Positions 6,293-19,264 of a stretch of 20,000 nt of DNA are shown piece by piece. This DNA comes from an uncultured virus (IMG/VR IMGVR_UViG_3300020159_003425) (taxonomy: Duplodnaviria > Heunggongvirae > Uroviricota > Caudoviricetes). The notes under the pieces were generated by a model, which ran no database searches, was not told the DNA's origin, and saw only the letters and a list, made by a program, of their open reading frames with translations. Within the stretch, counting starts at the first letter, position 1; the number at the start of each line of letters is the position of its first letter. The DNA is taken from the IMG/VR virus record IMGVR_UViG_3300020159_003425. The stretch is one strand, 5' to 3'. The position numbers and the translations under genes are program-made.

Positions 6293-6778
6293 ATGATAAC
6301 ATTAAATGAATTTGAAAACTTCTTGTACACCGATTTGGTTTATGAACAGAAAATAGTTTCGGTAATTGACGATCAACATAGGCAGATATTGATTGAAAAT
6401 ATCCGGCAGTTACATGATTATACCAACTGCACCATAAAATTGGAACAAATGGAAAAATACAATGAAGGTATTTTCCAGAAGTGTCAAGAGTTGAGGAAGA
6501 AATACTCACATCCAGGTCCAGTAACCTGCCACGCATTTCTTGCGTTCAAAGGTTCCAAAAGTTTTGGTGTACACACTGACCCAGATAATGTTATAATAGA
6601 ATGTCTTTTTGGTTCAAAAACATTATATGTTGCAACCAAAAATGATAGAAGACATGTGCTCAAACAAGGCGAATATATATTCATACCAGCCAATACAGAA
6701 CATGAAATCATTAATGAAGAAAAGTCATTGATATTGAGTTTTGGATTTGAAAATTTTATACTGAAAAACTTAAATTAA
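6293..6778 (+). CDS. JmjC/cupin-fold Fe(II)/2-oxoglutarate oxygenase (Cupin_4-like)
   Basis: SFGVHTDPDNVII (HxD), GSKT, and LKQGEYIFIPANTEH (distal His) form the facial triad arrangement of JmjC/cupin hydroxylases. Confidence 0.75.
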   Translation: MITLNEFENFLYTDLVYEQKIVSVIDDQHRQILIENIRQLHDYTNCTIKLEQMEKYNEGIFQKCQELRKKYSHPGPVTCHAFLAFKGSKSFGVHTDPDNVIIECLFGSKTLYVATKNDRRHVLKQGEYIFIPANTEHEIINEEKSLILSFGFENFILKNLN

Positions 6779-6781
6779 ATT

Positions 6782-7831
6782 ATGGAATCGATGTTCTACC
6801 TCAAGACGACAGAAACTTGTAACCTAGACTGTCTTCACTGTTTCACAAGTGGTTCCAAAGGTGCAAAAATTTATTGGAATCATGTCAAGGTTGCTGACTG
6901 GTTACGAAAACTTTCGGCAAAAACACCACACATAACACACGCACATTTCGAATTTCATGGTGGTGAACCTTTCTTAGCAGACATTGCCTCCCTACAATAC
7001 GTATACGACAATTGCCAAAACCTTTGGCAGAGTCAAAGTTGGGGTGTCACAACCAATCTGACGTTCAAACTAGATCAAGAAAAGATAGATTTTATAATGG
7101 GTCCATTGGATGGTAGAGTTGGTACCAGTTGGGATCCAGACATACGATTTGCAAATCCAAAGCAATACGACTTGTGGAGAAAGAACGTACAAACACTGGT
7201 TGATTTGGGTGTTGTAATTAAACTGTTCATCAGTGTAACCAAGGGTACGATTGCAATAGAACCAATAGACTTACTAGAGTGGGTGAAATCTCTTGGTGTA
7301 AAAGAAATGGCATTAGAACGTTTAACAATGAACGGCAGTGCAAAGCAGAACTTACATATCTTTCCCACAAATATCGAACAAGACAAGTGGTTTTTGAAAA
7401 TGCACCAACAAAGTGAAGAACATGGTGCAAGAGACTGGTTCGTAAATGAATTTATGAAAACCGTATACGACAAATTCGAAACAGGATTTACAGGCGGCGG
7501 AACATTCTGTAGAGATTGTGAAGAGAAATTATTCACTGTGAATGCTGACGGCACCGTATCGGGATGTCCAAATTCTGCACCAGAATTTCAATTTGGCACC
7601 ATAGATGATGATATAGATGCGTTATTATCCAATCCTCAGAGATTGGAGAACATTGCTTGTGAAAGAGCAAGAGATCCAAGGTGTTACACATGTGAGGTGT
7701 TTCAGTATTGCAATAGTGATTGTCATCAGTTGGAATGGCAAGATGATATTTGTGGTGCACCAAAAAGTCTAATGATGGACTTGGCAAAAATAAATAAAAA
7801 ACATCCAGTTTTCAACCTTTTGCAGGTCTGA
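6782..7831 (+). CDS. Radical SAM/SPASM-domain protein (rSAM-1)
   Basis: CNLDCLHC (CX3CX2C) and FHGGEPF. SPASM-like CRDC...TVNADGTVSGCP and CYTCEVFQYCNSDC...C. Confidence 0.92.
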   Translation: MESMFYLKTTETCNLDCLHCFTSGSKGAKIYWNHVKVADWLRKLSAKTPHITHAHFEFHGGEPFLADIASLQYVYDNCQNLWQSQSWGVTTNLTFKLDQEKIDFIMGPLDGRVGTSWDPDIRFANPKQYDLWRKNVQTLVDLGVVIKLFISVTKGTIAIEPIDLLEWVKSLGVKEMALERLTMNGSAKQNLHIFPTNIEQDKWFLKMHQQSEEHGARDWFVNEFMKTVYDKFETGFTGGGTFCRDCEEKLFTVNADGTVSGCPNSAPEFQFGTIDDDIDALLSNPQRLENIACERARDPRCYTCEVFQYCNSDCHQLEWQDDICGAPKSLMMDLAKINKKHPVFNLLQV

Positions 7832-7832
7832 T

Positions 7833-8858
7833 GTGTTAACAAGAACAAAACCATACTCCACCGCATACGATCAGTACGGAGATCCATATAAACTTGTGGA
7901 ATTTCGTATGATGGTGTTGAACAACTGTTCTATGGACTGCAAAGGTTGTTTCTACAAAAGGACAGACAACAACTTCAATGATTTCAAGAGTTCAAGAAAT
8001 TTGGCAGAAGACATGCAGTCAAATGGATATAGACTGGAAACTTGTTATCTACTACCAACAGACATATTCGATAACAAAGACAACTATTCATTATTCGATA
8101 ATGAAGATTTTGCAAAAACGGTATCTCAATTTGCGTACCTGGGCATAGCATCAACATTGGAAGATGGTTTTGATACCAAATTCTTCGACATAGTTTATGG
8201 GTTAAATGATCATATCAAGATTGAATTGCAGGTGAATCTTCTCATCAATAGATTGTTTGATATAAACTATCAAATGATACTCAAACACAATGTAAACCGA
8301 ATCAAAAATCTATACAAGGATAGAGTAGTAATTAATCTGGCAATCAATACCGGATTCTCACTCGACACTAAGGAAAAGGATAAGATTAAATCGATGTTGA
8401 AATACCTTAGTGAAGATGGTATTGTCGAATTAAACTTCACTTTCCTATACAACAAAGATATTTCTGAGGAAAAGAAACAAAAGATGATGAAGGATAGCAT
8501 CAGAATCATTCAAGATTTTGGTGATTTCTACCAGGAAGATGAATCCTTTGTCACTAAATACAATATGCGTACATTTTTACGCAAACCATCTTTCGTTTTC
8601 GTTGGAGAACCAAACACAGTATACGTCAATCCAATAGTTCCTTTTGATGAATATGTGTATATCAAAAAAGATAGATACATTGTACAGACTCCAACATATG
8701 ATGGTTTTTTAAATTCTTATGGTAAAATAACTGAGATAAATACACCAGTAGTGGACGCCTGTGAGTCATGTGAAAACTTAACTCATTGTATGGGCAAGTT
8801 TTACTTTGCTATATCGAATGATTTTGACTTGGGGTGTTTCTTAAATCTGAAGGAATGA
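7833..8858 (+). CDS. Atypical radical SAM protein (rSAM-2) with C-terminal CX2CX5C cluster
   Basis: CSMDCKGC (CX3CX2C). LLPTDIF sits where GGEP is expected. C-terminal CESCENLTHC...C. The GTG start is 1 nt after the upstream stop and is uncertain. Confidence 0.75.
   Translation: MLTRTKPYSTAYDQYGDPYKLVEFRMMVLNNCSMDCKGCFYKRTDNNFNDFKSSRNLAEDMQSNGYRLETCYLLPTDIFDNKDNYSLFDNEDFAKTVSQFAYLGIASTLEDGFDTKFFDIVYGLNDHIKIELQVNLLINRLFDINYQMILKHNVNRIKNLYKDRVVINLAINTGFSLDTKEKDKIKSMLKYLSEDGIVELNFTFLYNKDISEEKKQKMMKDSIRIIQDFGDFYQEDESFVTKYNMRTFLRKPSFVFVGEPNTVYVNPIVPFDEYVYIKKDRYIVQTPTYDGFLNSYGKITEINTPVVDACESCENLTHCMGKFYFAISNDFDLGCFLNLKE
8736..8742 (+). promoter_or_regulatory. Possible T4-type late promoter (ATAAATA) upstream of the CHSS-repeat gene
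   Basis: gATAAATAc lies about 127 nt before ATG 8869. The 7-mer is common by chance in AT-rich DNA. Confidence 0.25.
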
Positions 8859-8868
8859 TGGAGAAAAA

Positions 8869-9408
8869 ATGGCAAATTCTGGTTCATTAATTACAAAACA
8901 AAGTATAGTAGATGATTACTATGCGTATATTCGGAATCCTGCTTATAACGCAGTAGTCTTTTGGTCCGGAGATAACCCAGGACCAACCAGAATTAACACT
9001 GGCGCACTTGGACCCAGAGATTTTAGTGCTAATTTGGCAACTGGCAACATAACAGATTCTGTTGTAACTGCTGCAACCATCATCAATCAGGTTAGGGCTT
9101 TTGCTGTATATACCACTGCTGCAAGAAGAGCGAGAAGTGGTTTCATAGTGGATGATTTTTCACCAGACAATCCACCATATACAATTGATGATAGAACCGA
9201 TGTTTGCCGCTTGACGGATTCTTATCTAATTAGTTACACTTATGGTGGAAGTGTGAGTAATCCTGTGGGCGCAACAAACATCAATCAATTCTACACTAAT
9301 ATTAGAGCAACTGCTCAGAATGCACAGACAACGGCCGATGTAGTAGATTTACGTGTGTGTCACAGTTCATGTCACAGTTCATGTCACTCATCAAGAGGAA
9401 GAAGATAA
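8869..9408 (+). CDS. Putative precursor/substrate protein (179 aa) with C-terminal (CHSS)3-RGRR tail and virion-protein-like body
   Basis: GGAG SD at 8860-8863. Ends VVDLRVCHSSCHSSCHSSRGRR. It has one Lys and no Glu, and all three His are in the tail. It lies amid radical SAM genes. Confidence 0.75.
   Translation: MANSGSLITKQSIVDDYYAYIRNPAYNAVVFWSGDNPGPTRINTGALGPRDFSANLATGNITDSVVTAATIINQVRAFAVYTTAARRARSGFIVDDFSPDNPPYTIDDRTDVCRLTDSYLISYTYGGSVSNPVGATNINQFYTNIRATAQNAQTTADVVDLRVCHSSCHSSCHSSRGRR
9358..9393 (+). repeat. 12-bp tandem repeat encoding CHSS x3
   Basis: tgtcacagttca tgtcacagttca tgtcactcatca. Confidence 0.95.
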
Positions 9409-10467
9409 ATGTTTCATATTGCTAACAGAGTGTATTTGGAATACGACTACAAATTTCATCAACAGTACCCATATATTGTTGCATCGAGTAGATGGAAAGA
9501 TCATCCAATAACTATATCGAAAAGTGAACTGATTGCTCAGGTACCGAGTTTTCAAGAACTATTATCTGAGAGATATAATAATAACATTGAAACCTTTTGG
9601 TCATCGTTATTATCAGAAACTAGAAAACTTATTGTTTTCGTTGATCCAGAAACCATGGCAAAGTTACAGTTCCAGTATTGGAAAAGTATTTTCAAAGATG
9701 ACATAAAGGCGGAAGACTTACACAAGTTGCACGCCAGTTGGATAGAAAGTAACAGATTGTCTAGTTACTACTCCTTAATTGGTTCATGGGACAGAGGCAC
9801 AAATTCATGGTCTAAATCCAATGCATTCACCGAGTTGGCAATACCGACTTTGGCGGATTCTACCAAATTATTCAATGAAACTGTTGCATCGAATACCATC
9901 AAATCGATGAACAAATCATCCATCAGTTTTGAATATTTGATGGCCGAGTTCTTTCACAACAATGCATCCAATTATAAACAAGAATTACTAAAAAGAATTG
10001 AGTTTCTAACTTGGGATAACTGGTTGGACGAACTGGAACACTTGAAATATGAAATCATTTCCGGCAATATCGATGCCGGTAAATTGGATACATCTCTAAG
10101 AATGAGTATTGGCAACATCGAAAGTGAACTGGCCAAAAGCGACTTGTTAAAATGGACTGTCGATCCAGCTTTTACCAATGATGCCGAGTATATTAAAGCA
10201 AATTATGATCCACAAATTTTCGTTAACTGTTATATCAAATTAGCAGAAGTATGGCAACACGACTACGATGACATGTCACAACTCAGCAGACTAATTAATG
10301 AGAAACAATATGAAGAATTGTTAAACAGAGATGTTAATAGAAACTATGGTTGCTCTTATACACGCACACGATTCTTTGCAAAATCCAACCATGTATTTGC
10401 CACATGGTGTTACGACTTGAAGAGAAAAGGACAAACTTCTCAGTTGGCACCATTCGTTCTACGTTAA
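9409..10467 (+). CDS. Hypothetical protein (352 aa), coupled to the CHSS-repeat gene
   Basis: TAA-ATG abutment at 9406-9411. Long ORF with no motif I recognise. Confidence 0.8.
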   Translation: MFHIANRVYLEYDYKFHQQYPYIVASSRWKDHPITISKSELIAQVPSFQELLSERYNNNIETFWSSLLSETRKLIVFVDPETMAKLQFQYWKSIFKDDIKAEDLHKLHASWIESNRLSSYYSLIGSWDRGTNSWSKSNAFTELAIPTLADSTKLFNETVASNTIKSMNKSSISFEYLMAEFFHNNASNYKQELLKRIEFLTWDNWLDELEHLKYEIISGNIDAGKLDTSLRMSIGNIESELAKSDLLKWTVDPAFTNDAEYIKANYDPQIFVNCYIKLAEVWQHDYDDMSQLSRLINEKQYEELLNRDVNRNYGCSYTRTRFFAKSNHVFATWCYDLKRKGQTSQLAPFVLR

Positions 10468-10504: not shown

Positions 10505-11626
10505 ATGTATTCTGTATTTTCAAATGAATTCAATGTCGTTTACCTTAGAGTGGTTCAGGGGTGCAATTTAAATTGCACACATTGTTTCACATTAGGCAAT
10601 AAAGATCCTGTCATGTTTACGGAGTTATCCGTTTTGGAAAAGTTCTTAACGTCCATACGAAACAATGTGAACCCACAGAAAGTCACATTTTACATTCATG
10701 GTGGTGAAACATTTTTAGCTCCACTAAAATATCTATCGAGTGTGAATGATTTAATTCGGGAAAAGTTTCCTGATATAAAGATGGATATAATTCCACAAAC
10801 AAACTTAATCTACAAAGTGGACCAAGAGTTTGTGGAATTTATCAAAAAAGAATACAGAGGCACGATAGGTGTTAGTTGGGATGCCGATATACGATTCGGA
10901 TCGGTAGCCATCAACAAAAAATCTGAACAAGAAGAAGTGTTCTTTAAGAACCTCCGATATCTGATCGACAATGGCATCAAAGTACATATTGCTATCACTG
11001 CACAAAAGAATTTATTGAACTATGATCCAATAGAGATCGTAGAAAAATTTGATGGTGTTGATAGTATAGACTTTGAATTGTTAACTACATTCGATGATCA
11101 AACAAGAAGTCTACGACCAAACAATTTGAAATGGGCAAACTGGTTGGATAAATTGGTAACATATTATGAAGACAATAATACCACTTGGTGTTTGCCACAA
11201 ATTGATCTGTTTACCAAAACACTAATGACTGGAAAAATGTTTGATTGTAAATGCAATTGTTGCGACAAACGAACATTCACTTTAAATCCAAATGGTACCG
11301 TTGGTTTATGTCCAGACATGACTTATGTTGAACCATTCAGTACAGTGGACGAAATGTCAACGGATTGGCCAGCATTTGAATCCAAGTCTCTGGATCTGAT
11401 AATAAAGAAGATCACTGCACAACAAGAACATGAGATGTGTTTCAAGTGCGAACATTATGACATATGCGGTGGTAATTGCGACTCTTCTTTGTTCGATGAC
11501 ACCGAAGAGTGTCCATTAAGTAAGAAGGTAATTGGTCGTATAAGAGGCAATATAAATAAATTTATTCGACTTTATGAACAAAAAGCCAAATTTAATTTGA
11601 CAGAACTGAGAGAAAATTATGAATAA
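10505..11626 (+). CDS. Radical SAM/SPASM-domain protein (rSAM-3), paralog of rSAM-1
   Basis: CNLNCTHC, IHGGETF and GVSWDADIRF. SPASM-like CKCNCC...TLNPNGTVGLCP and CFKCEHYDICGGNC...CP. Confidence 0.92.
   Translation: MYSVFSNEFNVVYLRVVQGCNLNCTHCFTLGNKDPVMFTELSVLEKFLTSIRNNVNPQKVTFYIHGGETFLAPLKYLSSVNDLIREKFPDIKMDIIPQTNLIYKVDQEFVEFIKKEYRGTIGVSWDADIRFGSVAINKKSEQEEVFFKNLRYLIDNGIKVHIAITAQKNLLNYDPIEIVEKFDGVDSIDFELLTTFDDQTRSLRPNNLKWANWLDKLVTYYEDNNTTWCLPQIDLFTKTLMTGKMFDCKCNCCDKRTFTLNPNGTVGLCPDMTYVEPFSTVDEMSTDWPAFESKSLDLIIKKITAQQEHEMCFKCEHYDICGGNCDSSLFDDTEECPLSKKVIGRIRGNINKFIRLYEQKAKFNLTELRENYE
11551..11558 (+). promoter_or_regulatory. T4 late promoter consensus TATAAATA
   Basis: Exact match, 60 nt upstream of ATG 11619 and inside the 3' end of rSAM-3. 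It is the only perfect copy I spotted. Confidence 0.4.
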
Positions 11627-12365
11627 GATCCGAGAAACTGTGGCACCTTTGCCAATTGAAACAATCAAAGAATATTTTCACGACAAAGAAATTTCTTTCT
11701 TGGTTGATTATGAAAACTCTAAGATTGCAGATAAAATTTTCTTAACATATGTTTCAAATCTGGACATACCGTTAGATATCAAATTAAGAAAAGACTTTCC
11801 CAAAGAAAAATTGTTCTCGTTGATTGATGCATATATGGATATGAAAACAATATGTGATGTTAAAACTTTAAGTATGATGGTAGTACACATTCTACTCAAA
11901 GCAATCGGCGTAAACACGAAAGAGTCATTGTCAAATACTTTTATGACAGAAGAATTGGTTGATGAATTCATTGAAACAAGAAAAGAAAAAGTTTCAAGGT
12001 GGGCTCACTTTTTGGATTCTTCAATGTTGTTTCTGATTTATTCTTACAAAGATTTGAATGAAAAAATAAAAGTCGAAGAATCATTTCCTAAAATAGAAGA
12101 TGCAAACTATGTCGGTTTGAACATCGTAAACCTATTCAGTGTTCCTGGTTTTATGAATTGTTATTTCAGTGCGGGTCCAACACCAAGTATGAGTTTCTTC
12201 ACCGAACAATTCACCAAGTATATGTTCAAAGGTAAAAACCTATTTGATTATTTCAACAACGAAGAGAATATGTTTGTACCACTACTGGTTGGGCTTGTCG
12301 AAAAGAAGTTACATATGGATCCAAGAGAACAATTCAAGGACGATTTGAGTCTGGAAGTAAAATAA
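11619..12365 (+). CDS. Hypothetical protein (248 aa)
   Basis: Overlaps the rSAM-3 stop by 8 nt. Long ORF in operon context with no recognised motif. Confidence 0.8.
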   Translation: MNKIRETVAPLPIETIKEYFHDKEISFLVDYENSKIADKIFLTYVSNLDIPLDIKLRKDFPKEKLFSLIDAYMDMKTICDVKTLSMMVVHILLKAIGVNTKESLSNTFMTEELVDEFIETRKEKVSRWAHFLDSSMLFLIYSYKDLNEKIKVEESFPKIEDANYVGLNIVNLFSVPGFMNCYFSAGPTPSMSFFTEQFTKYMFKGKNLFDYFNNEENMFVPLLVGLVEKKLHMDPREQFKDDLSLEVK

Positions 12366-12366
12366 A

Positions 12367-13470
12367 ATGGACGCTTATTTGGCATCAGGTAGTCTTAAAG
12401 ACTCCTTCAATTTTTACTTCAACTTAAACTTTGAATTCTTAAATGGATGCCAGTTTAGTTGTAAGGGTTGCCACGTAAATAAAAATGGTGCTGAAGCTTT
12501 CGATGATGATAGTTATACACAATTGAAGAAAATTATGGAGAGTTTTAGTGAAGGCAACTCCTATAAACCCTTCATTGCATTCATTGCACCCACCGATTTC
12601 TTAAGTGCAACAAATACCGAATCTGTTTTATCTGATCCACGTGTGGTAGAAATCTTAAACAAATTCAAACGCATCAGTTTACAAACAACATACTTGGACA
12701 TTAACAGAGCTGAGAGTATTGGTAATATTTTACGCAAACACTATTCAAATATGGAATTGGAAATCAATGTCATCATTGAACCAGAAAAAATTGAAAATGA
12801 AAAATACCTTTCAGTATTAAAACGCAATCAAGGTTATGTAATTAGAAAAATGAACTGGCCAACACCAGTAAGAAGTTTTGGTATAATGAATGTGTATGAT
12901 TATGATACAACAAAAATGGCAGAGTTATTGAGAGACTATGACTTCTTGCACAAAAAGGTAGAACATCTTTTTGAAACCACAATCGATTTCAATTTCAGTT
13001 TGGGTAGAAAAGATGAACAGTTAACCTCTGAAGAATTTTTCTCTGCTGCACAAAAGATCAAAGACATGTTTAATGGTAGTGTTGTCTCGGAAGAAAAGGG
13101 ACAATACTTGAGATTTAGTTTTGGTCGACTGAATGATTCTCTAATCGAGAAACAGTACAACTGGAAAAATGGAGAGTTCTATTACAGTCCACTTCTCTAT
13201 GAGAGATATGTAAGTTTTGTAAGTGGTTTAAAAATACCAATCAAAGACTTCAACTTTAAAGAATTTGAAGAGTATGAAGAACAAATACAACTTAGCCAGT
13301 ATACTAATGTGGATGACAAGACAGAATGCGGAGACTGTCCCTTACTAGGTTCATGTGTTGACAGAGGCATTCTTCATCTTATGGATATTCACGGCATTAA
13401 GGATTGCTTAGTAGCCAAAAATGCCATGGATGTTGTCAATGCTATGGGAACACTACCCTATGGCCATTGA
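12367..13470 (+). CDS. Atypical radical SAM protein (rSAM-4), paralog of rSAM-2
   Basis: CQFSCKGC (CX3CX2C). IAPTDFL sits in place of GGEP. C-terminal CGDCPLLGSC...C. Confidence 0.8.
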   Translation: MDAYLASGSLKDSFNFYFNLNFEFLNGCQFSCKGCHVNKNGAEAFDDDSYTQLKKIMESFSEGNSYKPFIAFIAPTDFLSATNTESVLSDPRVVEILNKFKRISLQTTYLDINRAESIGNILRKHYSNMELEINVIIEPEKIENEKYLSVLKRNQGYVIRKMNWPTPVRSFGIMNVYDYDTTKMAELLRDYDFLHKKVEHLFETTIDFNFSLGRKDEQLTSEEFFSAAQKIKDMFNGSVVSEEKGQYLRFSFGRLNDSLIEKQYNWKNGEFYYSPLLYERYVSFVSGLKIPIKDFNFKEFEEYEEQIQLSQYTNVDDKTECGDCPLLGSCVDRGILHLMDIHGIKDCLVAKNAMDVVNAMGTLPYGH

Positions 13471-14203
13471 TTTACTGTATCTCGCAAACAATATCACCGA
13501 TCAAGAGTTTGCCAAGTTAGTAGTATCTTCTGGAGATTATTTTCCTGGTTTCTACAGATTCACTATGGGTGATAGAAACCACGAGCGCAAGCAATTGAGT
13601 CTAAAAGGATTGATTGCTTGTTATTTCGATCAAGAAGTCAATTCAAAAAAATACACCAGAGAACAGTGGACTACATACACTAAAGAACGTCATCATGTTT
13701 TAGATGCAAGAAATTCTTCCAGATCAGACAGTTGGGTTTATGAAATGTTGGACCAAGGTTATCTAAAATGGATGACAGAAGCAAGAGAGTATGACATTGC
13801 ACTGATCGAAATAGATTCTGGTGTAGATAGAATTGCACTAGATGAAACGTACTTCTTTATGGGAAGTTTGATTCGCTTTGAAAAAAATTCTTTATCTTTG
13901 GGATTTGATTTGTTGAGAAACGAATCAGTCTTGACTATTGAAACGGATACATCCGAACTGATTGAATATACCGAGAAAATGTATCAATCGCATCTGAAAG
14001 ATTTCTTTTTACCCGCAGATTGTGTTGCATCCTTAAAGATGAATGATAATCTAGGAACACTTTCAATGTCAGACAAAACTGTTGCTAGAGCAATGACTTC
14101 AGACAGTAACACAGTGGTGATCGCATCAAATAGAAATGTTAGTAAACAAATTCCTATTCGTTGGGCTAAAGATATAATATTGACAGAAGTAAATGAATTA
14201 TGA
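13460..14203 (+). CDS. Hypothetical protein (~247 aa)
   Basis: Likely start is ATG 13460 (MAIDLLYL; 11-nt overlap with rSAM-4) rather than 13421. No recognised motif. Confidence 0.75.
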   Translation: MAIDLLYLANNITDQEFAKLVVSSGDYFPGFYRFTMGDRNHERKQLSLKGLIACYFDQEVNSKKYTREQWTTYTKERHHVLDARNSSRSDSWVYEMLDQGYLKWMTEAREYDIALIEIDSGVDRIALDETYFFMGSLIRFEKNSLSLGFDLLRNESVLTIETDTSELIEYTEKMYQSHLKDFFLPADCVASLKMNDNLGTLSMSDKTVARAMTSDSNTVVIASNRNVSKQIPIRWAKDIILTEVNEL

Positions 14204-14619
14204 AACTACAAGATGAACATGATCATTTTCTGAAATGTGTACCCGATTTATTCAACTCTTGCACAATCACGAAGGTGAGTGAAGATGGTCTGGCACAGGT
14301 TGAATATGAATATTTCAAGAAAGCATTGTTTCCCATATCAACCATAGTGTTCTATGAACATGGTGATAAGTATTATTATCCATTGGCAATGGAGTTTCGT
14401 TTAATTGATAACAACATACTCTACTTGACAGAAGAACTGAGTGTGAATTCGGCTGAAGAATTGTTCCGAATACTGACCAGTTCGATGAACAAAGAAGAAA
14501 AATGGAGTAACGAATTCAAACTATGCGTTGTGCATACAAAGTCCAAACCAAAATATTGTTTACAATTAAAAGATGACTTCAACATATCGAATGTAAACGT
14601 GGAGCATGTGTATGAGTGA
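14200..14619 (+). CDS. Hypothetical protein (139 aa)
   Basis: ATGA 4-nt overlap with the upstream gene. Confidence 0.75.
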   Translation: MKLQDEHDHFLKCVPDLFNSCTITKVSEDGLAQVEYEYFKKALFPISTIVFYEHGDKYYYPLAMEFRLIDNNILYLTEELSVNSAEELFRILTSSMNKEEKWSNEFKLCVVHTKSKPKYCLQLKDDFNISNVNVEHVYE

Positions 14620-15664
14620 ATTTTTAAAACACGTATTGAAAGATAAAGTTCCAGACTCTACAGAAATTGAATTGCACCTTTTTGAGTTTTGCAATCTGAG
14701 TTGTAGTTTCTGTGGGCAAGACCATGATAGCGAAGAGGGTCTGAATACCGTATCAGAAAAGGCCAAACAAGTAATAGACTTTATGCAAAAGTCTGGCAAA
14801 ACCAGCCACATTGTCAACAGCATGGGTGGAGAAATATTTAATGATCTGGTACCTGACGAAACACTCTCACAATACTGGGATTTTTATACTGAAATAAATG
14901 ATTGGTGTATCAGTAACAACCATAAAGTCAGATTCAATTGGGTAACAAATTTAATATTCCAAAAAAGTGAACGTGTTCTAGATTTGATTACACGTATGAG
15001 AAATGTGAGTGGCAATGCATACATTTCCACCAGTTATGACTTTGCTGGGCGTGGATTGGACATAAACAAAACAATCCAGTTTGATGCCAACCTCAAAAAA
15101 TTTGGTGATTGGATTACTGTGATAGGTTTCGTTATGACAAAGCCTGCCATAAGAAAAATTCTGACGAAGACTGATAAATTTTTTAGTGAAAACTTATACA
15201 AGAATTATACATTGTACTTTGATTACTATGTTCCTGAACTGAGATCAGATAAAAACATGCCGAGTGAACAAGAGATGTTGGACTGCATGTTGTTTATTGC
15301 AAAGAACTATCCTAACATTTATCCAATCAAAGATTTGATTGTTAATGAACACAACAAGATGACATGTTATAGCATGAACAAGGTAACTATTCTTCCCAGT
15401 GGCAAAGAGGTTACATGTCGATACTTGGATTACGAACCAGTTCAGTTCATAAATAAAATTGACTATAAGTCAAATAGCAATATAATAGAAGCTCATTTGG
15501 AAAGAAACAAATGTCTGGGATGTAAATGGTTTGACCGTTGTGCATTCAGGTGTTTTGTTCAGGCAGATTGGGCAGAATTGGAACGAACAAAAGAATGTCT
15601 TTTTAGGGAATTCTTTAATCAAGTGAATGAATTGGGCATGTTAAAATATGGATCTAATAATTAA
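14612..15664 (+). CDS. Radical SAM/SPASM-like protein (rSAM-5)
   Basis: GGAG at 14601-14604 favours ATG 14612. CNLSCSFC and MGGEIF. C-terminal CYSMNKVTILPSGKEVTC and CLGCKWFDRCAFRC...C. Confidence 0.9.
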   Translation: MSEFLKHVLKDKVPDSTEIELHLFEFCNLSCSFCGQDHDSEEGLNTVSEKAKQVIDFMQKSGKTSHIVNSMGGEIFNDLVPDETLSQYWDFYTEINDWCISNNHKVRFNWVTNLIFQKSERVLDLITRMRNVSGNAYISTSYDFAGRGLDINKTIQFDANLKKFGDWITVIGFVMTKPAIRKILTKTDKFFSENLYKNYTLYFDYYVPELRSDKNMPSEQEMLDCMLFIAKNYPNIYPIKDLIVNEHNKMTCYSMNKVTILPSGKEVTCRYLDYEPVQFINKIDYKSNSNIIEAHLERNKCLGCKWFDRCAFRCFVQADWAELERTKECLFREFFNQVNELGMLKYGSNN

Positions 15665-16715
15665 ACCAACGGAAAGATGCAATTTCAAATGCACTTTTTG
15701 TTCCAGCACACACATCACCGAAGATAAGACTGCTGAATTAGATCACGAATACATCTTCAAGTTTCTCAAAAGATATCCAGAAACACAAACAATCATAGTC
15801 AATGGTGGGGATCCACTAATGATGCATCCGGATTATTACTGGAAAATAATAGAACACTTGGATGAGATCAACAGTCCTGCTAGCATAAGTTTCACTAGCA
15901 ACCTTTGGCCATTCTATAAAAATCCCGAAAAGTGGATTGACCTCTTCAGACACCCTCGCATGGGTATTACAACCAGTTTTCAATACGGTGGCGGTAGGTT
16001 GAAGGGAGACCTATCCGAATTCACAGAAGAAGACTTTTGGTCCGTCAGTGACATGATGTCGGAACTGGTAGGATACAGACCAGATTTTATTGCGGTAATT
16101 ACCGAAGAGAATGAAAAAGATGCCATTAAGAATGTGGAACTGGCAAAAAGAATGAACGTTGTATGCAAATTAAATTATGCATTGAGCAGTGGACCTCCTG
16201 TAAAATTCAAAAATATTGTAATGGGACAAGAAGGTCGTCCATATATGTTATCAAAAATATATGAAATCTATGTTGATATATGGAAAAAGAATCTTGCACC
16301 TTGGGAATACAACACAACACAAATGATTCGTAGATTGAGTCAAGGCAATACAACTTGCCCACAAAATCGAAACTGCGATTCGGGAATCAGAACATTACAA
16401 CCTAGTGGAGACTATTATAGTTGTGGTGCATTTGGTGATGACAATCTATACAAGATAGATTTCGAAAAAGAAATGTCCGGTAAAAAGATATTTCCATTGA
16501 AGTATCAACAAGAATTGCAAAGTTTAAAACAATCTTGTTTCACCTGTCCCATGTTTGAGATATGCAATGGTTGCAAAAAGACAATTAAAGATTTGAAAGA
16601 TTATAATATGGTGGAAGATCATTGCTTCAGAATGAAAAAGATTGCACCTGATATCATAGAAGCCAATGGATTAACCGGTATTTTGGAACCAACACCGTAT
16701 GTCAAAGAATATTAA
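15648..16715 (+). CDS. Radical SAM/SPASM-domain protein (rSAM-6)
   Basis: IIKPTERCNFKCTFC and NGGDPL. CPQNRNC...LQPSGDYYSCG and CFTCPMFEICNGC...HC. Confidence 0.92.
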   Translation: MDLIIKPTERCNFKCTFCSSTHITEDKTAELDHEYIFKFLKRYPETQTIIVNGGDPLMMHPDYYWKIIEHLDEINSPASISFTSNLWPFYKNPEKWIDLFRHPRMGITTSFQYGGGRLKGDLSEFTEEDFWSVSDMMSELVGYRPDFIAVITEENEKDAIKNVELAKRMNVVCKLNYALSSGPPVKFKNIVMGQEGRPYMLSKIYEIYVDIWKKNLAPWEYNTTQMIRRLSQGNTTCPQNRNCDSGIRTLQPSGDYYSCGAFGDDNLYKIDFEKEMSGKKIFPLKYQQELQSLKQSCFTCPMFEICNGCKKTIKDLKDYNMVEDHCFRMKKIAPDIIEANGLTGILEPTPYVKEY

Positions 16716-17403
16716 TATACTGGCTCCCAGTTCATATCAAATAAAAGTTGATGTAAAAGCTTATGCGGAAGACCGAATCGACTATGAGAAAGCCATAAAA
16801 TATAGATGCCCAAATTTTTTACACAAGAATGGAAAAATATATGCATCAAAGCTTGGTGAACCCTATGTAGCCGTGACTGTTAGCCCATATCATATAAATT
16901 TTCAGTCTCAGATAGAAGAACCTGTTTGGCCAGTTGTAAAAGGATTAGTTGACAAAGGTTATTTGCCAGTAAGTAGTTGTGGTGGACATACGGATCCTTG
17001 GTGGGAATATTATTTTATGATTGCGGTTGGTACAGAAGAACAGGTTGAAGAAATTACAAATGCATTCAACAATGTTCCGAACACGCACATAGATGTTTAT
17101 CACAGTGTGGCTAACGTACATCAATACTACGAACACGGCAAATTTAAGTATCGACCTCTAGAGGAGTTGGAAGGAACAAACAAAGGTGAATGTCGTGATT
17201 TAAATATTTTATTGAATAGAAACTATTCAAACTATTTTTTCATTAGAGTTAGATTCAAACACGAAACATTTGCACTCATTTTTAATCCTTTCAATATTTT
17301 TGCACCACACTTCTTTCATAAACGAGAAATTGAAGAGTTTGATTTGTGGAAAAAGAATCTTTTGAATTATGTAGAGAATAAAATTGAATACTTTTATGGA
17401 TAA
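16699..17403 (+). CDS. Hypothetical protein (234 aa) with an SSCGGH motif
   Basis: 17-nt overlap with rSAM-6. Contains IEEPVWPVVKGLVDKGYLPVSSCGGH. Confidence 0.75.
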   Translation: MSKNINILAPSSYQIKVDVKAYAEDRIDYEKAIKYRCPNFLHKNGKIYASKLGEPYVAVTVSPYHINFQSQIEEPVWPVVKGLVDKGYLPVSSCGGHTDPWWEYYFMIAVGTEEQVEEITNAFNNVPNTHIDVYHSVANVHQYYEHGKFKYRPLEELEGTNKGECRDLNILLNRNYSNYFFIRVRFKHETFALIFNPFNIFAPHFFHKREIEEFDLWKKNLLNYVENKIEYFYG

Positions 17404-18316
17404 ACCAATTACTGTTTCAGTTAATCCAAGTTACTTCTGCAACTTCAGGTGTGACTTTTGTTATCTGACAGAAGAACAGTTGTCGGACCAAAAGAAAATA
17501 GAACTGGAAAAACTGGATGATTTACTCTCACAGATACCAAACATAGAACACATTGATCTATATGGTGGTGAAATTGGTGCGTTAAAGAAAGACTATTTCT
17601 ATGGGCTTAAAGACACCATTCGAAAACACTATGATGGTAAAATTAACATCATCACAAACTATTCGATGTTGCATGAAGGATTCTACGAGGATGATTTCTA
17701 CCTAAGTGTCAGTTACGATTGGGATGCAAGGGAAAAGTCGGATCGTGTCTATCAAAATATGTTGATGAGCCCGGTACCAATAGCGGTACTGGTTCTTGCC
17801 AGCCCTAAAGTCATAGAGATGAATGTGGACGAATTGATTATGAGCTTGAATCTTTGCAACAGTGTGAAGAGTGTGGAGATAAAACCATACAGTGACAATC
17901 AAGCCAATCAACACAGAGTCACACACAAAGAATATGAAGAGTTTGTAAAACGTTGGATAGAAAGCCCAATACAAAAGAATTTCGAGTTCATTAATGAGTA
18001 TTATTTGGAAGATGTATTAGATGATAACAGAAACGCATTCAGTGATGATCACATCTACATCACACCCAATGGTAAGTTTGCCGTTCTGGAGTTTGATCTA
18101 AATGACAACGAATACTTCTTGGAGTTGGATAGTTGGGACGATTACATTGCCTGGACCAAAAAAGAAAAGAAGAGTAACGTAAGTGACATTTGTAGGAGTT
18201 GTGAATTTTATGGTAAGTGCCTGACAGAACACTATCGTTATGTCAAGGATCTAAATAACAGTTGTAATGGTTATAAATTTTTAATAGAGTGGTATCGTGA
18301 ACGAGTGGAAAATTAG
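17396..18316 (+). CDS. Radical SAM protein (rSAM-7) with reduced C-terminal Cys cluster
   Basis: Likely start is ATG 17396. VNPSYFCNFRCDFC and YGGEIG. C-terminal CRSCEFYGKCLTEH...SC. Confidence 0.9.
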   Translation: MDKPITVSVNPSYFCNFRCDFCYLTEEQLSDQKKIELEKLDDLLSQIPNIEHIDLYGGEIGALKKDYFYGLKDTIRKHYDGKINIITNYSMLHEGFYEDDFYLSVSYDWDAREKSDRVYQNMLMSPVPIAVLVLASPKVIEMNVDELIMSLNLCNSVKSVEIKPYSDNQANQHRVTHKEYEEFVKRWIESPIQKNFEFINEYYLEDVLDDNRNAFSDDHIYITPNGKFAVLEFDLNDNEYFLELDSWDDYIAWTKKEKKSNVSDICRSCEFYGKCLTEHYRYVKDLNNSCNGYKFLIEWYRERVEN

Positions 18317-18695
18317 ACAAGAAATATATCACAGACTGAACACAGATTTTGATGATGATTTGAACACCAAAGAAGTTGAGTTTTCAGATGAGATAGTGCA
18401 TAATGCAGTTCGTTATTTCACCGAACGTGATATTGGATGGATATATCCAGCCAAGAGTTACATGGTTGGCATTTGTTATGCACGCTGGTTGTCTGAATAC
18501 TTTGGTGGTAATCCAATAGAATACCTGGACGAACAAGACTTACTCCACGGAAACGATCCTTACTTCAAAAAATACAGTGAGGCCAAAGAAATCTATGATG
18601 AAATAATGATCAAGATCAATGACTGGAATTTTGATGAATCTGCCGGTATGGTACCAGATGTAAAAGGTTATTTTATGGAAGAATTTATGTTATGA
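18297..18695 (+). CDS. Hypothetical acidic protein (132 aa)
   Basis: GTG start overlaps rSAM-7 by 20 nt and the stop overlaps the next ATG (ATGA). Contains YPAKSY and GNDPYF motifs of unknown meaning. Confidence 0.7.
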   Translation: MNEWKIRQEIYHRLNTDFDDDLNTKEVEFSDEIVHNAVRYFTERDIGWIYPAKSYMVGICYARWLSEYFGGNPIEYLDEQDLLHGNDPYFKKYSEAKEIYDEIMIKINDWNFDESAGMVPDVKGYFMEEFML

Positions 18696-19264
18696 TTCAA
18701 AATCTTTGGCCGACACCTTTCTTGAAAACACAAATTTCGGAAGAAATAAAAACCGATTTAGTAAATTATTTGTTAACAAAGTATGATTTCTTCAATGCAT
18801 CCGGTGAACTGAGTAATGTAAATGTCTTAGATGATGATTCGGATGTGATTGAAAATTTTAATCAAAAAGTTGCACTTCCATTGTTTGATAATTTTTTAAA
18901 AGATTCTCTCGGTAAAGATATCTCATGTTGGAAAGATTTTAAATTAAAGGGCTGGTTGACTGGGACAGGAAAAAACTATTCATCAATACCACATAATCAT
19001 AAAGGTGCCAGTCTTTCGGCCGTATTTTATATTTTTTGTGAAGAAATAGATAGGGGTGGTGAGATATATTTCACCGATCCAAGACAAAATTCAAACAGGG
19101 GTTATGACAATCAATTTTCTTCTTGGTTTGAGTCACTATCTTTCACACCAAAAAGTGGTGATGTTGTAATTTTTCCAAGTTTTTTGTATCATTATGTTGC
19201 AACCTATAGAGGAAATATCAGAATAGCTATGCCTGTTGACCTTTTCCTCTATACAAATGAGTGA
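18692..19264 (+). CDS. 2OG-Fe(II) oxygenase (TIGR02466 / 2OG-FeII_Oxy_5-like)
   Basis: LWPTP N-terminus, PHNHKGASLSAVFY (HxH), GEIYFTDPR, and PKSGDVVIFPSFLYHYV...RI (distal His, 2OG-binding Arg). Confidence 0.85.
   Translation: MIQNLWPTPFLKTQISEEIKTDLVNYLLTKYDFFNASGELSNVNVLDDDSDVIENFNQKVALPLFDNFLKDSLGKDISCWKDFKLKGWLTGTGKNYSSIPHNHKGASLSAVFYIFCEEIDRGGEIYFTDPRQNSNRGYDNQFSSWFESLSFTPKSGDVVIFPSFLYHYVATYRGNIRIAMPVDLFLYTNE

What the first reader, a model, noticed from the sequence alone, without database searches (positions are those of the whole stretch)
6293..19264. Phage-encoded 16-gene island with seven radical SAM enzymes, two Fe/2OG oxygenases and a CHSS-repeat substrate: candidate RiPP-like modification system
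Seen in sequence: seven ORFs carry CX3CX2C plus C-terminal Cys clusters. They are bracketed by a JmjC/cupin gene and a 2OG-Fe(II) oxygenase gene, include six unknown ORFs, and nearly all overlap or abut. The block sits between tail fibre and baseplate-type genes. Established: radical SAM/SPASM enzymes mature peptides and proteins (ranthipeptide/sactipeptide thioethers, cyclophanes, anaerobic sulfatase maturases), and JmjC/2OG enzymes hydroxylate proteins and RiPPs. Some large phages, such as Campylobacter CP220-like phages, are known to carry multiple radical SAM genes of unclear function. Inference: this is one pathway that heavily modifies the 179-aa protein. Seven rSAMs for one short core is far more than in typical bacterial RiPP clusters, and I know of no characterised phage pathway like it.
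Basis: partly seen in the sequence, partly recalled or inferred. Interest (0 to 1): 0.95.

Follow-up and report, generated by a model that had tools for sequence, protein, structure and literature searches.

The report
Radical-SAM kit maturing Cys-His-tailed virion protein
A freshwater phage carries, behind its tail-fibre gene, sixteen tightly packed genes (seven radical-SAM enzymes, two iron oxygenases, six unknowns) around a small protein with an invariant Cys-His-x-Ser x3 tail; this unstudied kit recurs in hundreds of phages and in predatory bacteria and probably rebuilds that tail on a virus-particle protein.

Summary
Window 6293-19264 has 16 same-strand genes, each 37 nt or less from the next or overlapping it. 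They are a JmjC-like cupin, seven CX3CX2C proteins, six unknowns, a 2OG oxygenase and a 179-aa protein ending VCHSSCHSSCHSSRGRR.

Of the seven CX3CX2C proteins, five have family-level radical SAM (rSAM) hits of their own. R4's family is rSAM through its members. R2 rests on the motif only.

The cassette is not unique. The tail motif was found at 123 or more places in viral contigs. Every one of the 85 loci of at least 8 kb also has CX3CX2C genes. Among 80 loci chosen by R1 homology alone, 69 of 69 testable ones carry the tail gene right after R1. It also occurs in jumbo phages (RSL2/RSF1, FLC6/8, S13, Atu_ph07, Phosso, DT01) and in 26 Bdellovibrionota genomes.

In Atu_ph07 the homologue is gp170, matched by exact mass. 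It was detected in purified virions and ran anomalously high on the gel; none of the enzymes was detected.

My best reading is enzymatic maturation of a fibre-module virion protein's C-terminal tail, not a released RiPP. The chemistry has not been shown.

The closest characterised system is the HXS antiphage system (HxS repeats, two rSAMs). It is an analogue; this cassette is not a member.

This scan has found the same cassette before on other DNA (8 notes). I found no paper describing it.

The parts
3197..6214 (+). FIB: 1005-aa repeat-rich tail-fibre-like protein. Its last ~125 aa (nt ~5828-6214) form the only part conserved next to the cassette in other phages.
   Evidence: PHROG tail fibre families match residues 855-993. 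Peptidase_G2 IMC domain scores E 1.5e-4, below cut-off. The C-terminal domain lies at the C-terminus of upstream proteins of 128-1819 aa in 57 ORFs of other loci.
6293..6778 (+). Cupin / JmjC-like Fe(II) oxygenase
   Evidence: Cupin_2 E 3.6e-7, JmjC_2 E 2.7e-6. phrog_8014. H94, D96 and H137 are invariant in 57 homologues.
6782..7831 (+). R1: radical SAM/SPASM enzyme. It lies immediately upstream of the tail protein in most loci.
   Evidence: SPASM TIGR04085 scores 32.1 bits against a cut-off of 27. CX3CX2C and the full 7-Cys SPASM motif are invariant in 46 sequences. Best solved relative is anSME 4k37, E 1e-10, aligned over the full length.
7833..8858 (+). R2: probable divergent radical SAM protein, found only in the expanded form of the cassette
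   Evidence: CSMDCKGC and a C-terminal CxxCx5C...C are invariant in 16 sequences. No Pfam, NCBIfam or PDB hit. hhalign against R1 gives E 1.5e-3, probability 16%.
8869..9408 (+). TAIL: 179-aa protein. A folded alpha/beta N-domain is followed by the invariant C-terminal (CHxS)x3-RxRR (nt 9358-9405).
   Evidence: DNA read directly. The AF2 model has pLDDT 85.7, with the tail at low confidence. No PDB fold match. C, H and R positions are invariant and S nearly so. Its Atu_ph07 homologue is virion protein gp170.
9409..10467 (+). U1: unknown protein, mostly in the expanded form
   Evidence: phrog_36207. No Pfam hit. Present in Bdellovibrionota loci and L002-L006.
10505..11626 (+). R3: radical SAM/SPASM enzyme (expanded form)
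   Evidence: Radical_SAM E 1.9e-6. SPASM TIGR04085 28.0 bits against a cut-off of 27. DynA, anSME and YhhB models score E 1e-13 to 1e-17, far below their cut-offs.
11619..12365 (+). U2: conserved unknown protein that follows the tail gene in most loci
   Evidence: phrog_20767 E 2e-64. Found in 67 of 85 loci. The AF2 model has pLDDT 92.7 with no PDB match: Foldseek E >= 0.15, VIA best Z 4.7 over 54 aa.
12367..13470 (+). R4: divergent radical SAM protein. The family expands to 4-5 tandem copies in some phages.
   Evidence: phrog_31457 E 4e-94. CX3CX2C is kept in 113 of 114 members. 13 of 25 members hit Pfam Radical_SAM.
13421..14203 (+). U3: unknown protein (expanded form)
   Evidence: No family hit. 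Homologues occur only in L002-L006 and Bdellovibrionota loci.
14200..14619 (+). U4: unknown protein (expanded form)
   Evidence: No family hit. Its distribution matches that of U3.
14606..15664 (+). R5: radical SAM/SPASM-like enzyme (core)
   Evidence: phrog_1802 E 7e-44. Radical_SAM E 9e-4. Found in 68 of 85 loci. 56% identical to the RSL2 homologue.
15648..16715 (+). R6: radical SAM/SPASM enzyme (core). It is the most conserved gene of the cassette.
   Evidence: Radical_SAM E 8e-10, above cut-off. 57-65% identical in all 15 isolate-phage records.
16699..17403 (+). U5: unknown protein
   Evidence: No family hit. Homologues in 17 of 85 loci.
17384..18316 (+). R7: radical SAM enzyme with one C-terminal CxxCx5C...C cluster (core)
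   Evidence: Radical_SAM E 3.7e-7, above cut-off. phrog_1802. Found in 56 of 85 loci.
18297..18695 (+). U6: small conserved unknown protein (core)
   Evidence: phrog_20737 E 1.5e-53. Mean column identity is 41% in 46 sequences. No PDB sequence hit. No useful Atlas hit.
18692..19264 (+). Fe(II)/2OG oxygenase
   Evidence: 2OG-FeII_Oxy_5 E 1.9e-11. phrog_81. H101, H103, H167 and R177 are invariant in 46 homologues.
19349..19690 (+). LtfC-like tail-fibre assembly protein (downstream flank)
   Evidence: PF23926 LtfC E 9.5e-7. phrog_3304, L-shaped tail fibre assembly.

Best explanation
This is a self-contained, mobile maturation cassette for a virion protein of the tail-fibre module.

The 179-aa protein (TAIL) has a folded N-terminal domain and a flexible, invariant 16-residue end, (Cys-His-x-Ser)x3-Arg-x-Arg-Arg. 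I propose the following sequence of events:
- During late infection, the co-encoded anSME-sized SPASM radical SAM paralogues each abstract a hydrogen from a defined residue of that tail. The core set is R1, R5, R6 and R7; this window adds R2, R3 and R4.
- These reactions install C-S and/or C-C cross-links on Cys, His and Ser. The His-x-Ser unit is the kind of three-residue motif that cyclophane-forming rSAMs and the HXS enzymes act on.
- The JmjC-like cupin and the 2OG oxygenase add hydroxylations, with His and Arg as the likely targets.
- U2 and U6 are helper or recognition proteins of unknown fold.
- The finished protein is built into the particle next to the fibre. The enzymes are not.

Shown: the gene content, the strict co-occurrence, the invariance of the tail, and virion residence of the Atu_ph07 homologue.
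Inferred: that the tail is the substrate, which chemistry is used, and what the modified tail does. Candidates for the last are a rigid metal- or DNA-binding knob, or a covalent link that gives the SDS-stable high-mass form.
For: 1. Strict linkage.
- 9 of 9 loci found through R4 or U2 homologues have a + strand ORF ending CHxxCHxxCHxxR[GS]RR.
- All 85 motif-bearing loci of at least 8 kb have 1-8 CX3CX2C ORFs on the same strand.
- 69 of 69 testable loci picked only by R1 homology carry the tail ORF, which starts a median of about 30 nt after R1. Eleven of the 80 loci were left out because they have under 1200 nt downstream.

2. Contrast in conservation. The C, H and R positions of the tail are invariant across 148 distinct tail proteins, while the N-domain averages 27% column identity. 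That set was selected by the motif. The independent sets are those in point 1.

3. Enzyme type.
- R1 keeps CX3CX2C and the complete SPASM 7-Cys motif.
- Its best solved relative is the protein-modifying anSME, aligned over the full length.
- NCBIfam best hits are anSME, PapB, DynA, DarE, YhhB, HxsB and HxsC, all peptide or protein maturases.

4. The oxygenases keep their metal triads.

5. Virion evidence. Atu_ph07 Table S5 lists gp170 at 31.89 kDa (8 peptides, 35% coverage, bands 1-9, peak in band 1), gp176 at 66.07 kDa and gp177 at 21.66 kDa (PMC6102473 supplement).
- My computed masses for the TAIL, FIB and neighbouring ORFs of L007 are 31.89, 66.07 and 21.66 kDa.
- None of the eight enzyme or helper masses appears in that table.
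- By my reading of the table, other 25-40 kDa proteins peak in bands 4-13. Only gp170, gp321 and the single-peptide gp616 peak in band 1.

6. Position. The cassette sits directly behind a fibre protein with a shared C-terminal domain in many lineages.

7. Precedent. In HXS, two rSAMs mature a protein with HxS repeats (abstract and sections 9-10 of PMC13128918). An rSAM, HtkB, makes a His-C2 to Lys-C-beta cross-link (abstract listing of PMC11499958).
Against: - No mass shift or cross-link has been measured on any TAIL homologue. The Atu_ph07 table gives no peptide-level data.
- gp170's high gel position could be an ordinary SDS-resistant fibre oligomer.
- The window's TAIL N-domain is only about 20-30% identical to distant homologues, so virion residence in this phage is inferred from homology.
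- None of the enzymes reaches any curated equivalog cut-off, so the chemistry cannot be read from homology.
- No RiPP-recognition (RRE) domain was detected.
- R2 is rSAM by motif only.
- The cassette also occurs in Bdellovibrionota chromosomes, which have no virions. The function therefore cannot be strictly about virions.
Confidence: 0.55

Rival explanations
1. Classical RiPP. TAIL is a long-leader precursor. After modification, the 16-residue core is cut off and acts as a free peptide, for example a metallophore, toxin or signal.
For: The core is C-terminal and sits behind a long variable N-terminal part. The enzymes are SPASM rSAMs of the peptide-maturase type. The precursor gene is duplicated in tandem in some loci, as in many RiPP clusters.
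Against: No protease or transporter family was detected among the 16 proteins. The N-part is a confidently folded 160-aa domain (pLDDT 85.7), not a leader-like peptide. The Atu_ph07 homologue is in virions as a protein with 35% coverage. No RRE domain was found.
Confidence: 0.12
2. TAIL is not the substrate. Its Cys/His tail binds a metal or Fe-S cluster and serves as a scaffold, carrier or structural metal site. The enzymes act on another target, such as the neighbouring fibre protein or a small molecule.
For: Cys-His pairs are classical metal ligands. A fibre protein with a conserved C-terminal domain travels with the cassette. Multi-rSAM sets are known for metallocofactor assembly (recalled: HydE/HydG, NifB). 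There is no direct evidence that TAIL is modified.
Against: The Ser or Asn at position 4 of each repeat and the terminal RxRR are also nearly invariant, which metal ligation alone does not explain. The fibre's conserved domain looks like an auto-chaperone that is removed: gp176 (66 kDa) peaks in band 4 with 50-56 kDa proteins. The fibre is missing next to many cassettes, for example in Bdellovibrionota and RSL2, whereas TAIL never is.
Confidence: 0.15
3. A functional variant of the main reading. The matured His/Arg-rich tail works at the host envelope on DNA passage. It would mirror or counter the bacterial HXS defence, whose rSAM-matured HxS-repeat protein binds incoming phage DNA in the periplasm.
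For: The tail shares an HxS repeat logic and a basic character with HxsA. TAIL is carried in particles. The cassette also occurs in bacteria that invade the periplasm of prey.
Against: The enzymes are no closer to HxsB or HxsC than to other SPASM maturases: 29 bits against cut-offs of 370 and 268. There is no HxsD match, and TAIL has no peptidoglycan-binding domain or signal peptide. The idea rests on analogy only.
Confidence: 0.1
4. The enzymes are auxiliary metabolic, nucleotide- or DNA-modifying enzymes (viperin-like, hypermodification, or anaerobic metabolism as was proposed for CP220) and have nothing to do with TAIL.
For: Weak N-terminal similarity to viperin models (R7 E 1.4e-9; pVip). 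Phage rSAMs are known in thymidine hypermodification (abstract listing of PMC8989533).
Against: The viperin matches cover only the cluster-binding N-terminus and lie far below cut-off (37.5 bits against 180). The C-terminal domains are SPASM-type. There are no nucleotide-metabolism neighbours. The cassette always sits with TAIL in the fibre region.
Confidence: 0.04

Closest known systems
HXS antiphage system (HxsA-D; Li et al., Nat Commun 2026, PMC13128918; abstract and sections 9-10 read)
   Same: A ribosomal protein with tandem His-x-Ser units is matured in the cytoplasm by more than one radical SAM enzyme plus a small helper. The modification (+8 Da on SHRSS) maps to His and Ser of a repeat. 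The product is a functional protein, not a released peptide.
   Different: - Here each repeat starts with an invariant Cys, there are three repeats at the extreme C-terminus, and they are followed by RxRR.
- There are 4-8 rSAMs plus Fe/2OG oxygenases, not two rSAMs.
- There is no peptidoglycan-binding domain, signal peptide or HxsD match.
- The enzymes score about 29 bits against HxsB and HxsC cut-offs of 370 and 268.
- The carriers are phages and Bdellovibrionota, not Gammaproteobacteria defence islands.
Anaerobic sulfatase-maturating enzyme (anSME; TIGR03942; PDB 4k37)
   Same: It is the best solved and best NCBIfam relative of R1, R3 and R6. It has the same size and domain plan: an rSAM core plus SPASM, with no RRE. 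It acts on Cys or Ser of a protein rather than of a leader-bearing peptide.
   Different: Scores are 45-62 bits against a cut-off of 349. The tail lacks the C/S-x-P/A-x-R sulfatase motif; only the last repeat reads C-H-x-S-R. There is no sulfatase gene nearby.
Three-residue cyclophane (triceptide) and darobactin/dynobactin-type rSAM/SPASM maturases (YhhB, XyeB, GrrM, FxsB, HtkB/HaaB, DarE, DynA)
   Same: These are SPASM rSAMs that cross-link an aromatic residue, His included, to the beta-carbon of the residue two positions on. His-x-Ser inside CHxS fits that pattern. Weak full-length hits exist: DynA E 1.8e-17 and YhhB E 1.3e-13 for R3. The His-C2 to Lys-C-beta case is from the abstract listing of PMC11499958.
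   Different: All scores are far below the curated cut-offs. The substrate is a folded 126-434-aa virion-associated protein. No protease or exporter is present. Several paralogous enzymes serve each substrate.
Multiple radical SAM genes of Campylobacter phages CP220/CPt10 (PMC2853527, passages read)
   Same: Large phages with many rSAM genes (11-12), including a five-gene module of unknown function.
   Different: No similarity was found with R1 (tblastn E <= 1e-20) or R6 (E <= 1e-5) in the phage collection. Only 15 records matched, none from Campylobacter phages. I did not test whether those phages carry a CHxS-tailed gene.

Membership tests
Radical SAM superfamily (PF04055) | CX3CX2C cluster motif near the N-terminus of a partial TIM barrel | tested here: met
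   The motif is present in all seven window proteins. It is kept in 108/108, 17/18, 16/17, 113/114, 106/106, 88/88 and 82/82 family members.
Radical SAM superfamily (PF04055) | Profile match at the curated threshold | tested here: inconclusive
   R6 (39.6 bits) and R7 (30.9 bits) are above the 29.5 cut-off. R1, R3 and R5 are below it (20-29 bits). R2 and R4 have no hit. 13 of 25 R4 relatives hit at E <= 0.01. R2 matches only by hhalign, E 1.5e-3.
SPASM domain rSAMs (TIGR04085 / PF13186) | Seven-Cys motif CX9-15GX4C ... CX2CX5CX3C ... C binding two auxiliary clusters | tested here: met
   In R1, C246..G257..C262, C301/C304/C310/C314 and C324 are invariant in 46 sequences. TIGR04085 scores are R1 32.1 and R3 28.0 (cut-off 27) and R6 26.2, just below. 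R2, R4 and R7 keep only CxxCx5C...C, which suggests one auxiliary cluster.
Anaerobic sulfatase maturase (TIGR03942) | Equivalog score and a C/S-x-P/A-x-R substrate motif | tested here: not met
   Scores are 45.4 (R1), 62.2 (R3) and 46.8 (R6) bits against a cut-off of 349.45. The tail has no Pro or Ala at position +2.
HXS system (HxsA/B/C/D; TIGR03976-03979) | HxsB and HxsC equivalog rSAMs, the HxsD partner, and HxsA with HxS repeats and a peptidoglycan-binding domain | tested here: not met
   HxsB scores 29.1 bits (cut-off 370) for R1. HxsC scores 29.4 bits (cut-off 267.9) for R6. No NCBIfam hit for TAIL or any U protein. There are no PG-binding Pfam hits. Only the H-x-S unit is shared.
RiPP biosynthetic cluster | Short precursor with leader and core, recognition element (RRE), leader protease and/or exporter, released peptide product | tested here: inconclusive
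   A gene-encoded substrate candidate and maturase-type enzymes are present. No RRE, protease or transporter family was detected. The homologue persists as a protein in virions. Whether a peptide is released was not testable.
CXXX-repeat peptide maturase system (TIGR04119) | Equivalog-domain score of the maturase | tested here: not met
   R3 scores 19.5 bits against a cut-off of 150. The name of the companion target family is recalled, not tested.
JmjC / cupin Fe(II)-2OG oxygenases | HxD/E...H facial triad in a double-stranded beta-helix | tested here: met
   Cupin_2 scores 30.2 bits (cut-off 27.2) and JmjC_2 27.4 bits (cut-off 22). H94, D96 and H137 are invariant in 57 sequences. The substrate was not testable.
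2OG-FeII_Oxy_5 (PF13759) | Profile match at threshold and conserved His/Arg ligands | tested here: met
   44.7 bits against a cut-off of 27. H101, H103, H167 and R177 are invariant in 46 sequences.
Viperin / pVip | Equivalog score over the full length | tested here: not met
   The best case is R7: 37.5 bits against a cut-off of 180, covering residues 18-102 only. PADLOC pVip hits are likewise limited mostly to the N-terminus.

The most novel reading that the evidence does not exclude
Phages of several unrelated lineages and predatory Bdellovibrionota share a radical-SAM-built, multiply cross-linked Cys/His/Arg module on a particle- or fibre-associated protein. They would use it at the envelope of the cell they invade, for example as a covalent or metal-locked tip, or as a DNA- or periplasm-directed device that mirrors or counters the bacterial HXS defence. 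That would be the first radical-SAM modification of a virion structural protein, made by chemistry that needs four to eight dedicated enzymes and has no characterised equivalent.
Probability: 0.2. Interest if true: 0.9.

Novelty: new variant of a known kind. Interest (0 to 1): 0.8.

Why it matters
If the reading holds, virus particles can be chemically finished by radical SAM enzymes. That class of post-translational chemistry is so far known for small peptides, sulfatases and, since 2026, one bacterial defence protein.

The system is abundant. It is present in cultured, tractable phages (Atu_ph07, DT01), so it can be tested directly with existing material.

Four to eight paralogous enzymes acting on 16 invariant residues promise new cross-link chemistry on Cys, His and Ser.

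The presence of the cassette in predatory bacteria as well as phages suggests a shared device for attacking Gram-negative envelopes.

Tried and rejected
- Complex prediction of R1 (A4) with TAIL (A1): no verdict, ipSAE 0.01 and 0.02 against a mark of 0.32; the controls were not run. This is not evidence either way.
- Fold searches with the TAIL model: Foldseek best E 0.46. VIA wide best Z 3.9, with noise-level rows for TssK, IglD and the phage Milano baseplate. No fold was assigned.
- Fold searches with the U2 model: Foldseek best E 0.15. VIA best Z 4.7 over 54 aa, plus weak rSAM half-barrel rows for TokK, CysS and ChlB at Z 3.3-3.9. This is a lead only.
- Profile searches of U2, U6, R4 and R2 against PDB sequences gave nothing meaningful.
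- The ESM Atlas gave no usable hit for U2 or U6.
- megablast of the island and tblastn of TAIL against isolated phages gave no match. The low-complexity filter and divergence are the likely reasons. The homologues were reached through neighbouring genes instead.
- hhalign of R4 against R1 aligned only the C-terminal Cys region (probability 18%).
- PADLOC gave only generic pVip and 2OG matches.
- The promoter and terminator scan was at chance level: 51 found against 56 expected, and 7 against 6.8.
- No whole genome is held for the window.
- Sequencing runs: no RNA holder was listed, so nothing can be said on expression.
- The RSL2/RSF1 virion proteome paper (Bhunchoth 2016, recalled) is not in the library, so ORF068 could not be checked. 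The FLC6, S13 and RP12/RP31 papers only list the cupin, rSAM and 2OG annotations (passages).
- The glycyl-radical idea for the RGRR end was rejected because the Gly is replaced by Ser, Ala or Asn in 19 of 148 tails.
- The R6 tree is a quick, midpoint-rooted tree with long branches. I draw no direction of transfer from it.

Full report
**What is there**

The window is phage-like, with all long ORFs on the + strand. From 6293 to 19264 there are 16 genes. Fourteen of the 15 junctions are overlaps or gaps of 10 nt or less; the largest gap is 37 nt. In order they are:
- a cupin/JmjC-like protein (6293-6778);
- R1 (6782-7831) and R2 (7833-8858);
- the 179-aa protein I call TAIL (8869-9408);
- U1 (9409-10467), R3 (10505-11626), U2 (11619-12365), R4 (12367-13470);
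- U3 (13421-14203), U4 (14200-14619), R5 (14606-15664), R6 (15648-16715);
- U5 (16699-17403), R7 (17384-18316), U6 (18297-18695);
- a 2OG-FeII_Oxy_5 oxygenase (18692-19264).

TAIL ends V-C-H-S-S-C-H-S-S-C-H-S-S-R-G-R-R followed by a stop, read directly from the DNA. Upstream is a 1005-aa repeat-rich fibre-like protein (PHROG tail-fibre families). Its last ~125 residues weakly match the Peptidase_G2 auto-chaperone domain (E 1.5e-4, below cut-off). Downstream is an LtfC-like tail-fibre assembly protein.

**Are there seven radical SAM enzymes?**

All seven R proteins carry CX3CX2C near the N-terminus and Cys clusters near the C-terminus.
- R1, R3, R5, R6 and R7 hit Pfam Radical_SAM and/or NCBIfam rSAM/SPASM models. 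R6 and R7 are above the Pfam cut-off. R1 and R3 are above the SPASM TIGR04085 cut-off.
- An alignment of 46 R1 homologues keeps the CX3CX2C motif and the complete seven-Cys SPASM signature invariant.
- The R1 profile's best solved relative is the anaerobic sulfatase-maturating enzyme, aligned end to end (4k37, E 1e-10).
- R4 has no hit of its own, but 13 of 25 relatives hit Radical_SAM.
- R2 has no family or PDB hit. It has invariant Cys motifs and a weak profile match to R1 (E 1.5e-3, probability 16%).
- Across homologues over 250 aa, the motif is kept in 108/108, 17/18, 16/17, 113/114, 106/106, 88/88 and 82/82 members of the seven families.

My tally is six well supported and one probable.

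The cupin keeps an invariant H-x-D...H triad. The 2OG enzyme keeps invariant His and Arg ligands.

**The cassette is conserved and widespread**

Homologues of R4 and U2 led to Ralstonia phages RSL2 and RSF1, Burkholderia phages FLC6, FLC8 and S13, Agrobacterium phage Atu_ph07, Sinorhizobium phage Phosso and Pseudomonas phage pPa_SNUABM_DT01. R1 and R6 find the same 15 records. RSL2 is syntenic with the window.

In all nine loci reached through these other genes (L001-L009), a + strand ORF ends CHxxCHxxCHxxR[GS]RR.

Of the 133 sources then held, 125 contain such an ORF. All 85 loci of at least 8 kb have between one and eight CX3CX2C ORFs on the same strand.

Because that set was chosen by the motif, I ran the reverse test. 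Of these, 69 of the 69 with at least 1200 nt downstream carry the strict tail ORF, which starts a median of about 30 nt after R1. The other 11 are too short to judge.

The usual gene order is [fibre]-cupin-R1-TAIL-U2-(a ~340-390-aa protein)-R5-R6-R7-U6-2OG. The window has an expanded form with R2, U1, R3, U3 and U4. Some phages have two tandem short TAIL genes and four to five R4 paralogues.

**Conservation pattern**

In 148 distinct tail proteins the C, H and R positions are fixed. This is by construction of that set, but they are equally fixed in the independent sets above. Position 4 of each repeat is Ser in 118-129 of 148, otherwise mostly Asn or Ala. The residue between the arginines is Gly in 129.

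The N-terminal domain is far more variable: mean column identity is 27%. R6 is 57-65% identical between this freshwater phage and the jumbo phages of soil bacteria. A variable body on an invariant tail, with highly constrained enzymes, is what an enzyme-substrate relation at the tail predicts.

**Beyond phages**

The same pattern scan of one genome per prokaryotic species gave 47 stretches, and 37 have a complete ORF ending in the motif.
- 26 of the 37 are in records labelled Bdellovibrionota (Bdellovibrio, Pseudobdellovibrio, Bacteriovorax, Halobacteriovorax relatives), on contigs of up to 2.8 Mb.
- Several of these have the window's exact expanded order, R1-R2-TAIL-U1-R3-U2-R4-U3-U4-R5-R6 (L146, L154).
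- Flanks include housekeeping genes (LolA, signal peptidase II) in one locus. In two of the four loci examined they include fibre-like proteins with the Peptidase_S74 auto-chaperone.
- U2 was found in 11 of 301 sampled genomes of that phylum, so it is an accessory trait there.
- The remaining 11 records are phage-like contigs binned into marine MAGs, plus single Bacilli, Dysosmobacter, Flavobacteriaceae and unclassified records.
- A quick, midpoint-rooted R6 tree nests the phage sequences among Bdellovibrionota ones. The window groups with other phage contigs. I draw no direction of transfer from that tree.

**Experimental anchor**

The Atu_ph07 paper reports an ESI-MS/MS virion proteome (PMC6102473; passages, Supplementary Table S5 read). 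It lists:
- gp170: 31.89 kDa, 8 unique peptides, 35.16% coverage, bands 1-9, most abundant in band 1;
- gp176: 66.07 kDa, most abundant in band 4;
- gp177: 21.66 kDa.

I computed the masses of the Atu_ph07 ORFs in locus L007. The TAIL homologue is 31.89 kDa, the fibre homologue 66.07 kDa and the ORF before it 21.66 kDa. All three match to two decimals, so gp170 is the TAIL homologue.

The cupin, R1, U2 and the other cassette products have masses of 22.26, 40.87, 30.4, 42.59, 13.29, 34.34, 40.68 and 27.52 kDa. None of these is in the table.

By my reading of the table, 25-40 kDa proteins otherwise peak in bands 4-13. Only gp170, gp321 and the single-peptide gp616 peak in band 1. gp176 peaks with 50-56 kDa proteins, which fits loss of its ~125-aa C-terminal domain.

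TAIL's homologue is therefore a particle protein that survives boiling in SDS in a high-mass form, and the enzymes stay behind. This fits covalent cross-linking but does not prove it; SDS-resistant fibre oligomers are an alternative.

**Structure**

TAIL modelled with 51 homologues gives a confident alpha/beta domain (pLDDT 85.7) with a low-confidence tail. No convincing PDB match was found. U2 gives a very confident model (pLDDT 92.7), again without a match. U6 and U2 have no PDB sequence relatives. A complex prediction of R1 with TAIL gave no verdict and counts for nothing.

**Mechanism I commit to**

The cassette matures the C-terminal tail of a fibre-module virion protein.
- The enzymes are anSME-sized SPASM rSAMs without a recognisable RRE, a plan suited to protein substrates.
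- Their weak but consistent best hits are anSME, PapB, DynA, DarE, YhhB, HxsB and HxsC. All of these abstract hydrogen from a side chain or C-alpha of a peptide and form C-S, C-C or C-O links, or oxidise Cys or Ser.
- Each CHxS unit offers a thiol and a His-x-Ser triad.
- His-to-beta-carbon cyclophanes are made by related enzymes (abstract listing of PMC11499958).
- In the HXS defence system, two rSAMs put a +8 Da change on the His and Ser of an SHRSS repeat of a protein effector (PMC13128918, abstract and sections 9-10).
- JmjC_2-type oxygenases hydroxylate His and Arg in ribosomal proteins. This point is recalled, not tested.

I put 0.55 on [quoted passage not shown]. I put less, about 0.35, on Cys/His/Ser cross-linking as the chemistry. 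The purpose remains open: a rigid metal- or DNA-binding end, or a covalent lock.

**Comparison and novelty**

No curated NCBIfam, Pfam or PADLOC model covers TAIL, U1-U6 or any R protein at equivalog level. PHROGs has families for them, labelled unknown or generic. The papers on the isolated phages only list the annotations. My literature searches found no description of the system.

The closest characterised system, HXS, shares the logic but fails every membership feature tested.

Earlier notes of this scan describe the same cassette eight times on other DNA with the same reading. They gave me the HXS paper, which I then read myself. I had reached the Atu_ph07 and Bdellovibrionota results before that look-up. 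One note calls the cassette virus-only, which my genome scan contradicts.

I class this as a new variant of a known kind, namely rSAM maturation of a gene-encoded protein. It comes with unknown chemistry and a new biological setting.

**Ecology of this copy**

Near-identical DNA occurs in freshwater and lake metagenome runs of 11 studies. Two further runs may be the source itself. No RNA run was listed.

Noticed in passing
window 3493-4467 (- strand): A 324-aa ORF lies antisense to the fibre gene's repeat region. It mirrors the repeats (phmmer match to the fibre protein itself) and is almost certainly a shadow ORF, not a gene.
   Followed up: partly
window 3197-6214: The fibre protein contains two long families of tandem peptide repeats: ~21-aa 'NTATASVTGTTFTNVLQANTS'-type units, and 'ANGAFxQANAA...NNAAGASLY' units further along. 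Only its last ~125 aa are shared with fibres next to other cassettes.
   Followed up: partly
L007 (Atu_ph07) 8617-10440: The fibre homologue gp176 (66.07 kDa) peaks in gel band 4 together with 50-56 kDa proteins. This suggests removal of its ~125-aa Peptidase_G2-like C-terminal domain in the mature particle.
   Followed up: partly
L161 (Dysosmobacter contig) and L166 (Bacilli MAG): The tail motif and rSAM neighbours also occur in two Gram-positive-labelled records. L161's 119-aa protein carries two (CHxS)x3 blocks in a row. Some proteins (L032, L042, L162, L170) have four repeats instead of three.
   Followed up: no
L146 3077-4204 and L153 169-1410: In two of the four Bdellovibrionota loci examined, a Peptidase_S74 (endosialidase-chaperone) fibre-like protein lies near the cassette. 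This echoes the fibre linkage seen in phages.
   Followed up: partly
window 11619-12365 (U2 model m6d0b518aca28): The first ~60-130 residues of the U2 model weakly resemble the half-barrel of rSAM enzymes (TokK, CysS, ChlB; Z 3.3-3.9). U2 could be a degenerate, cluster-less rSAM paralogue acting as a substrate-holding partner.
   Followed up: no
window 2-886 and 1320-2975: The upstream ORFs match phrog_358 and phrog_877, large virion proteins of unknown function. The first ends in a Gly5-Cys-Cys stretch and a hydrophobic C-terminus. The same S1-S5 genes flank the cassette in L018.
   Followed up: no
window 6293-16292: Near-identical DNA is held by freshwater and lake metagenome runs from 11 studies (2019-2025), so this phage lineage recurs in lakes.
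   Followed up: no
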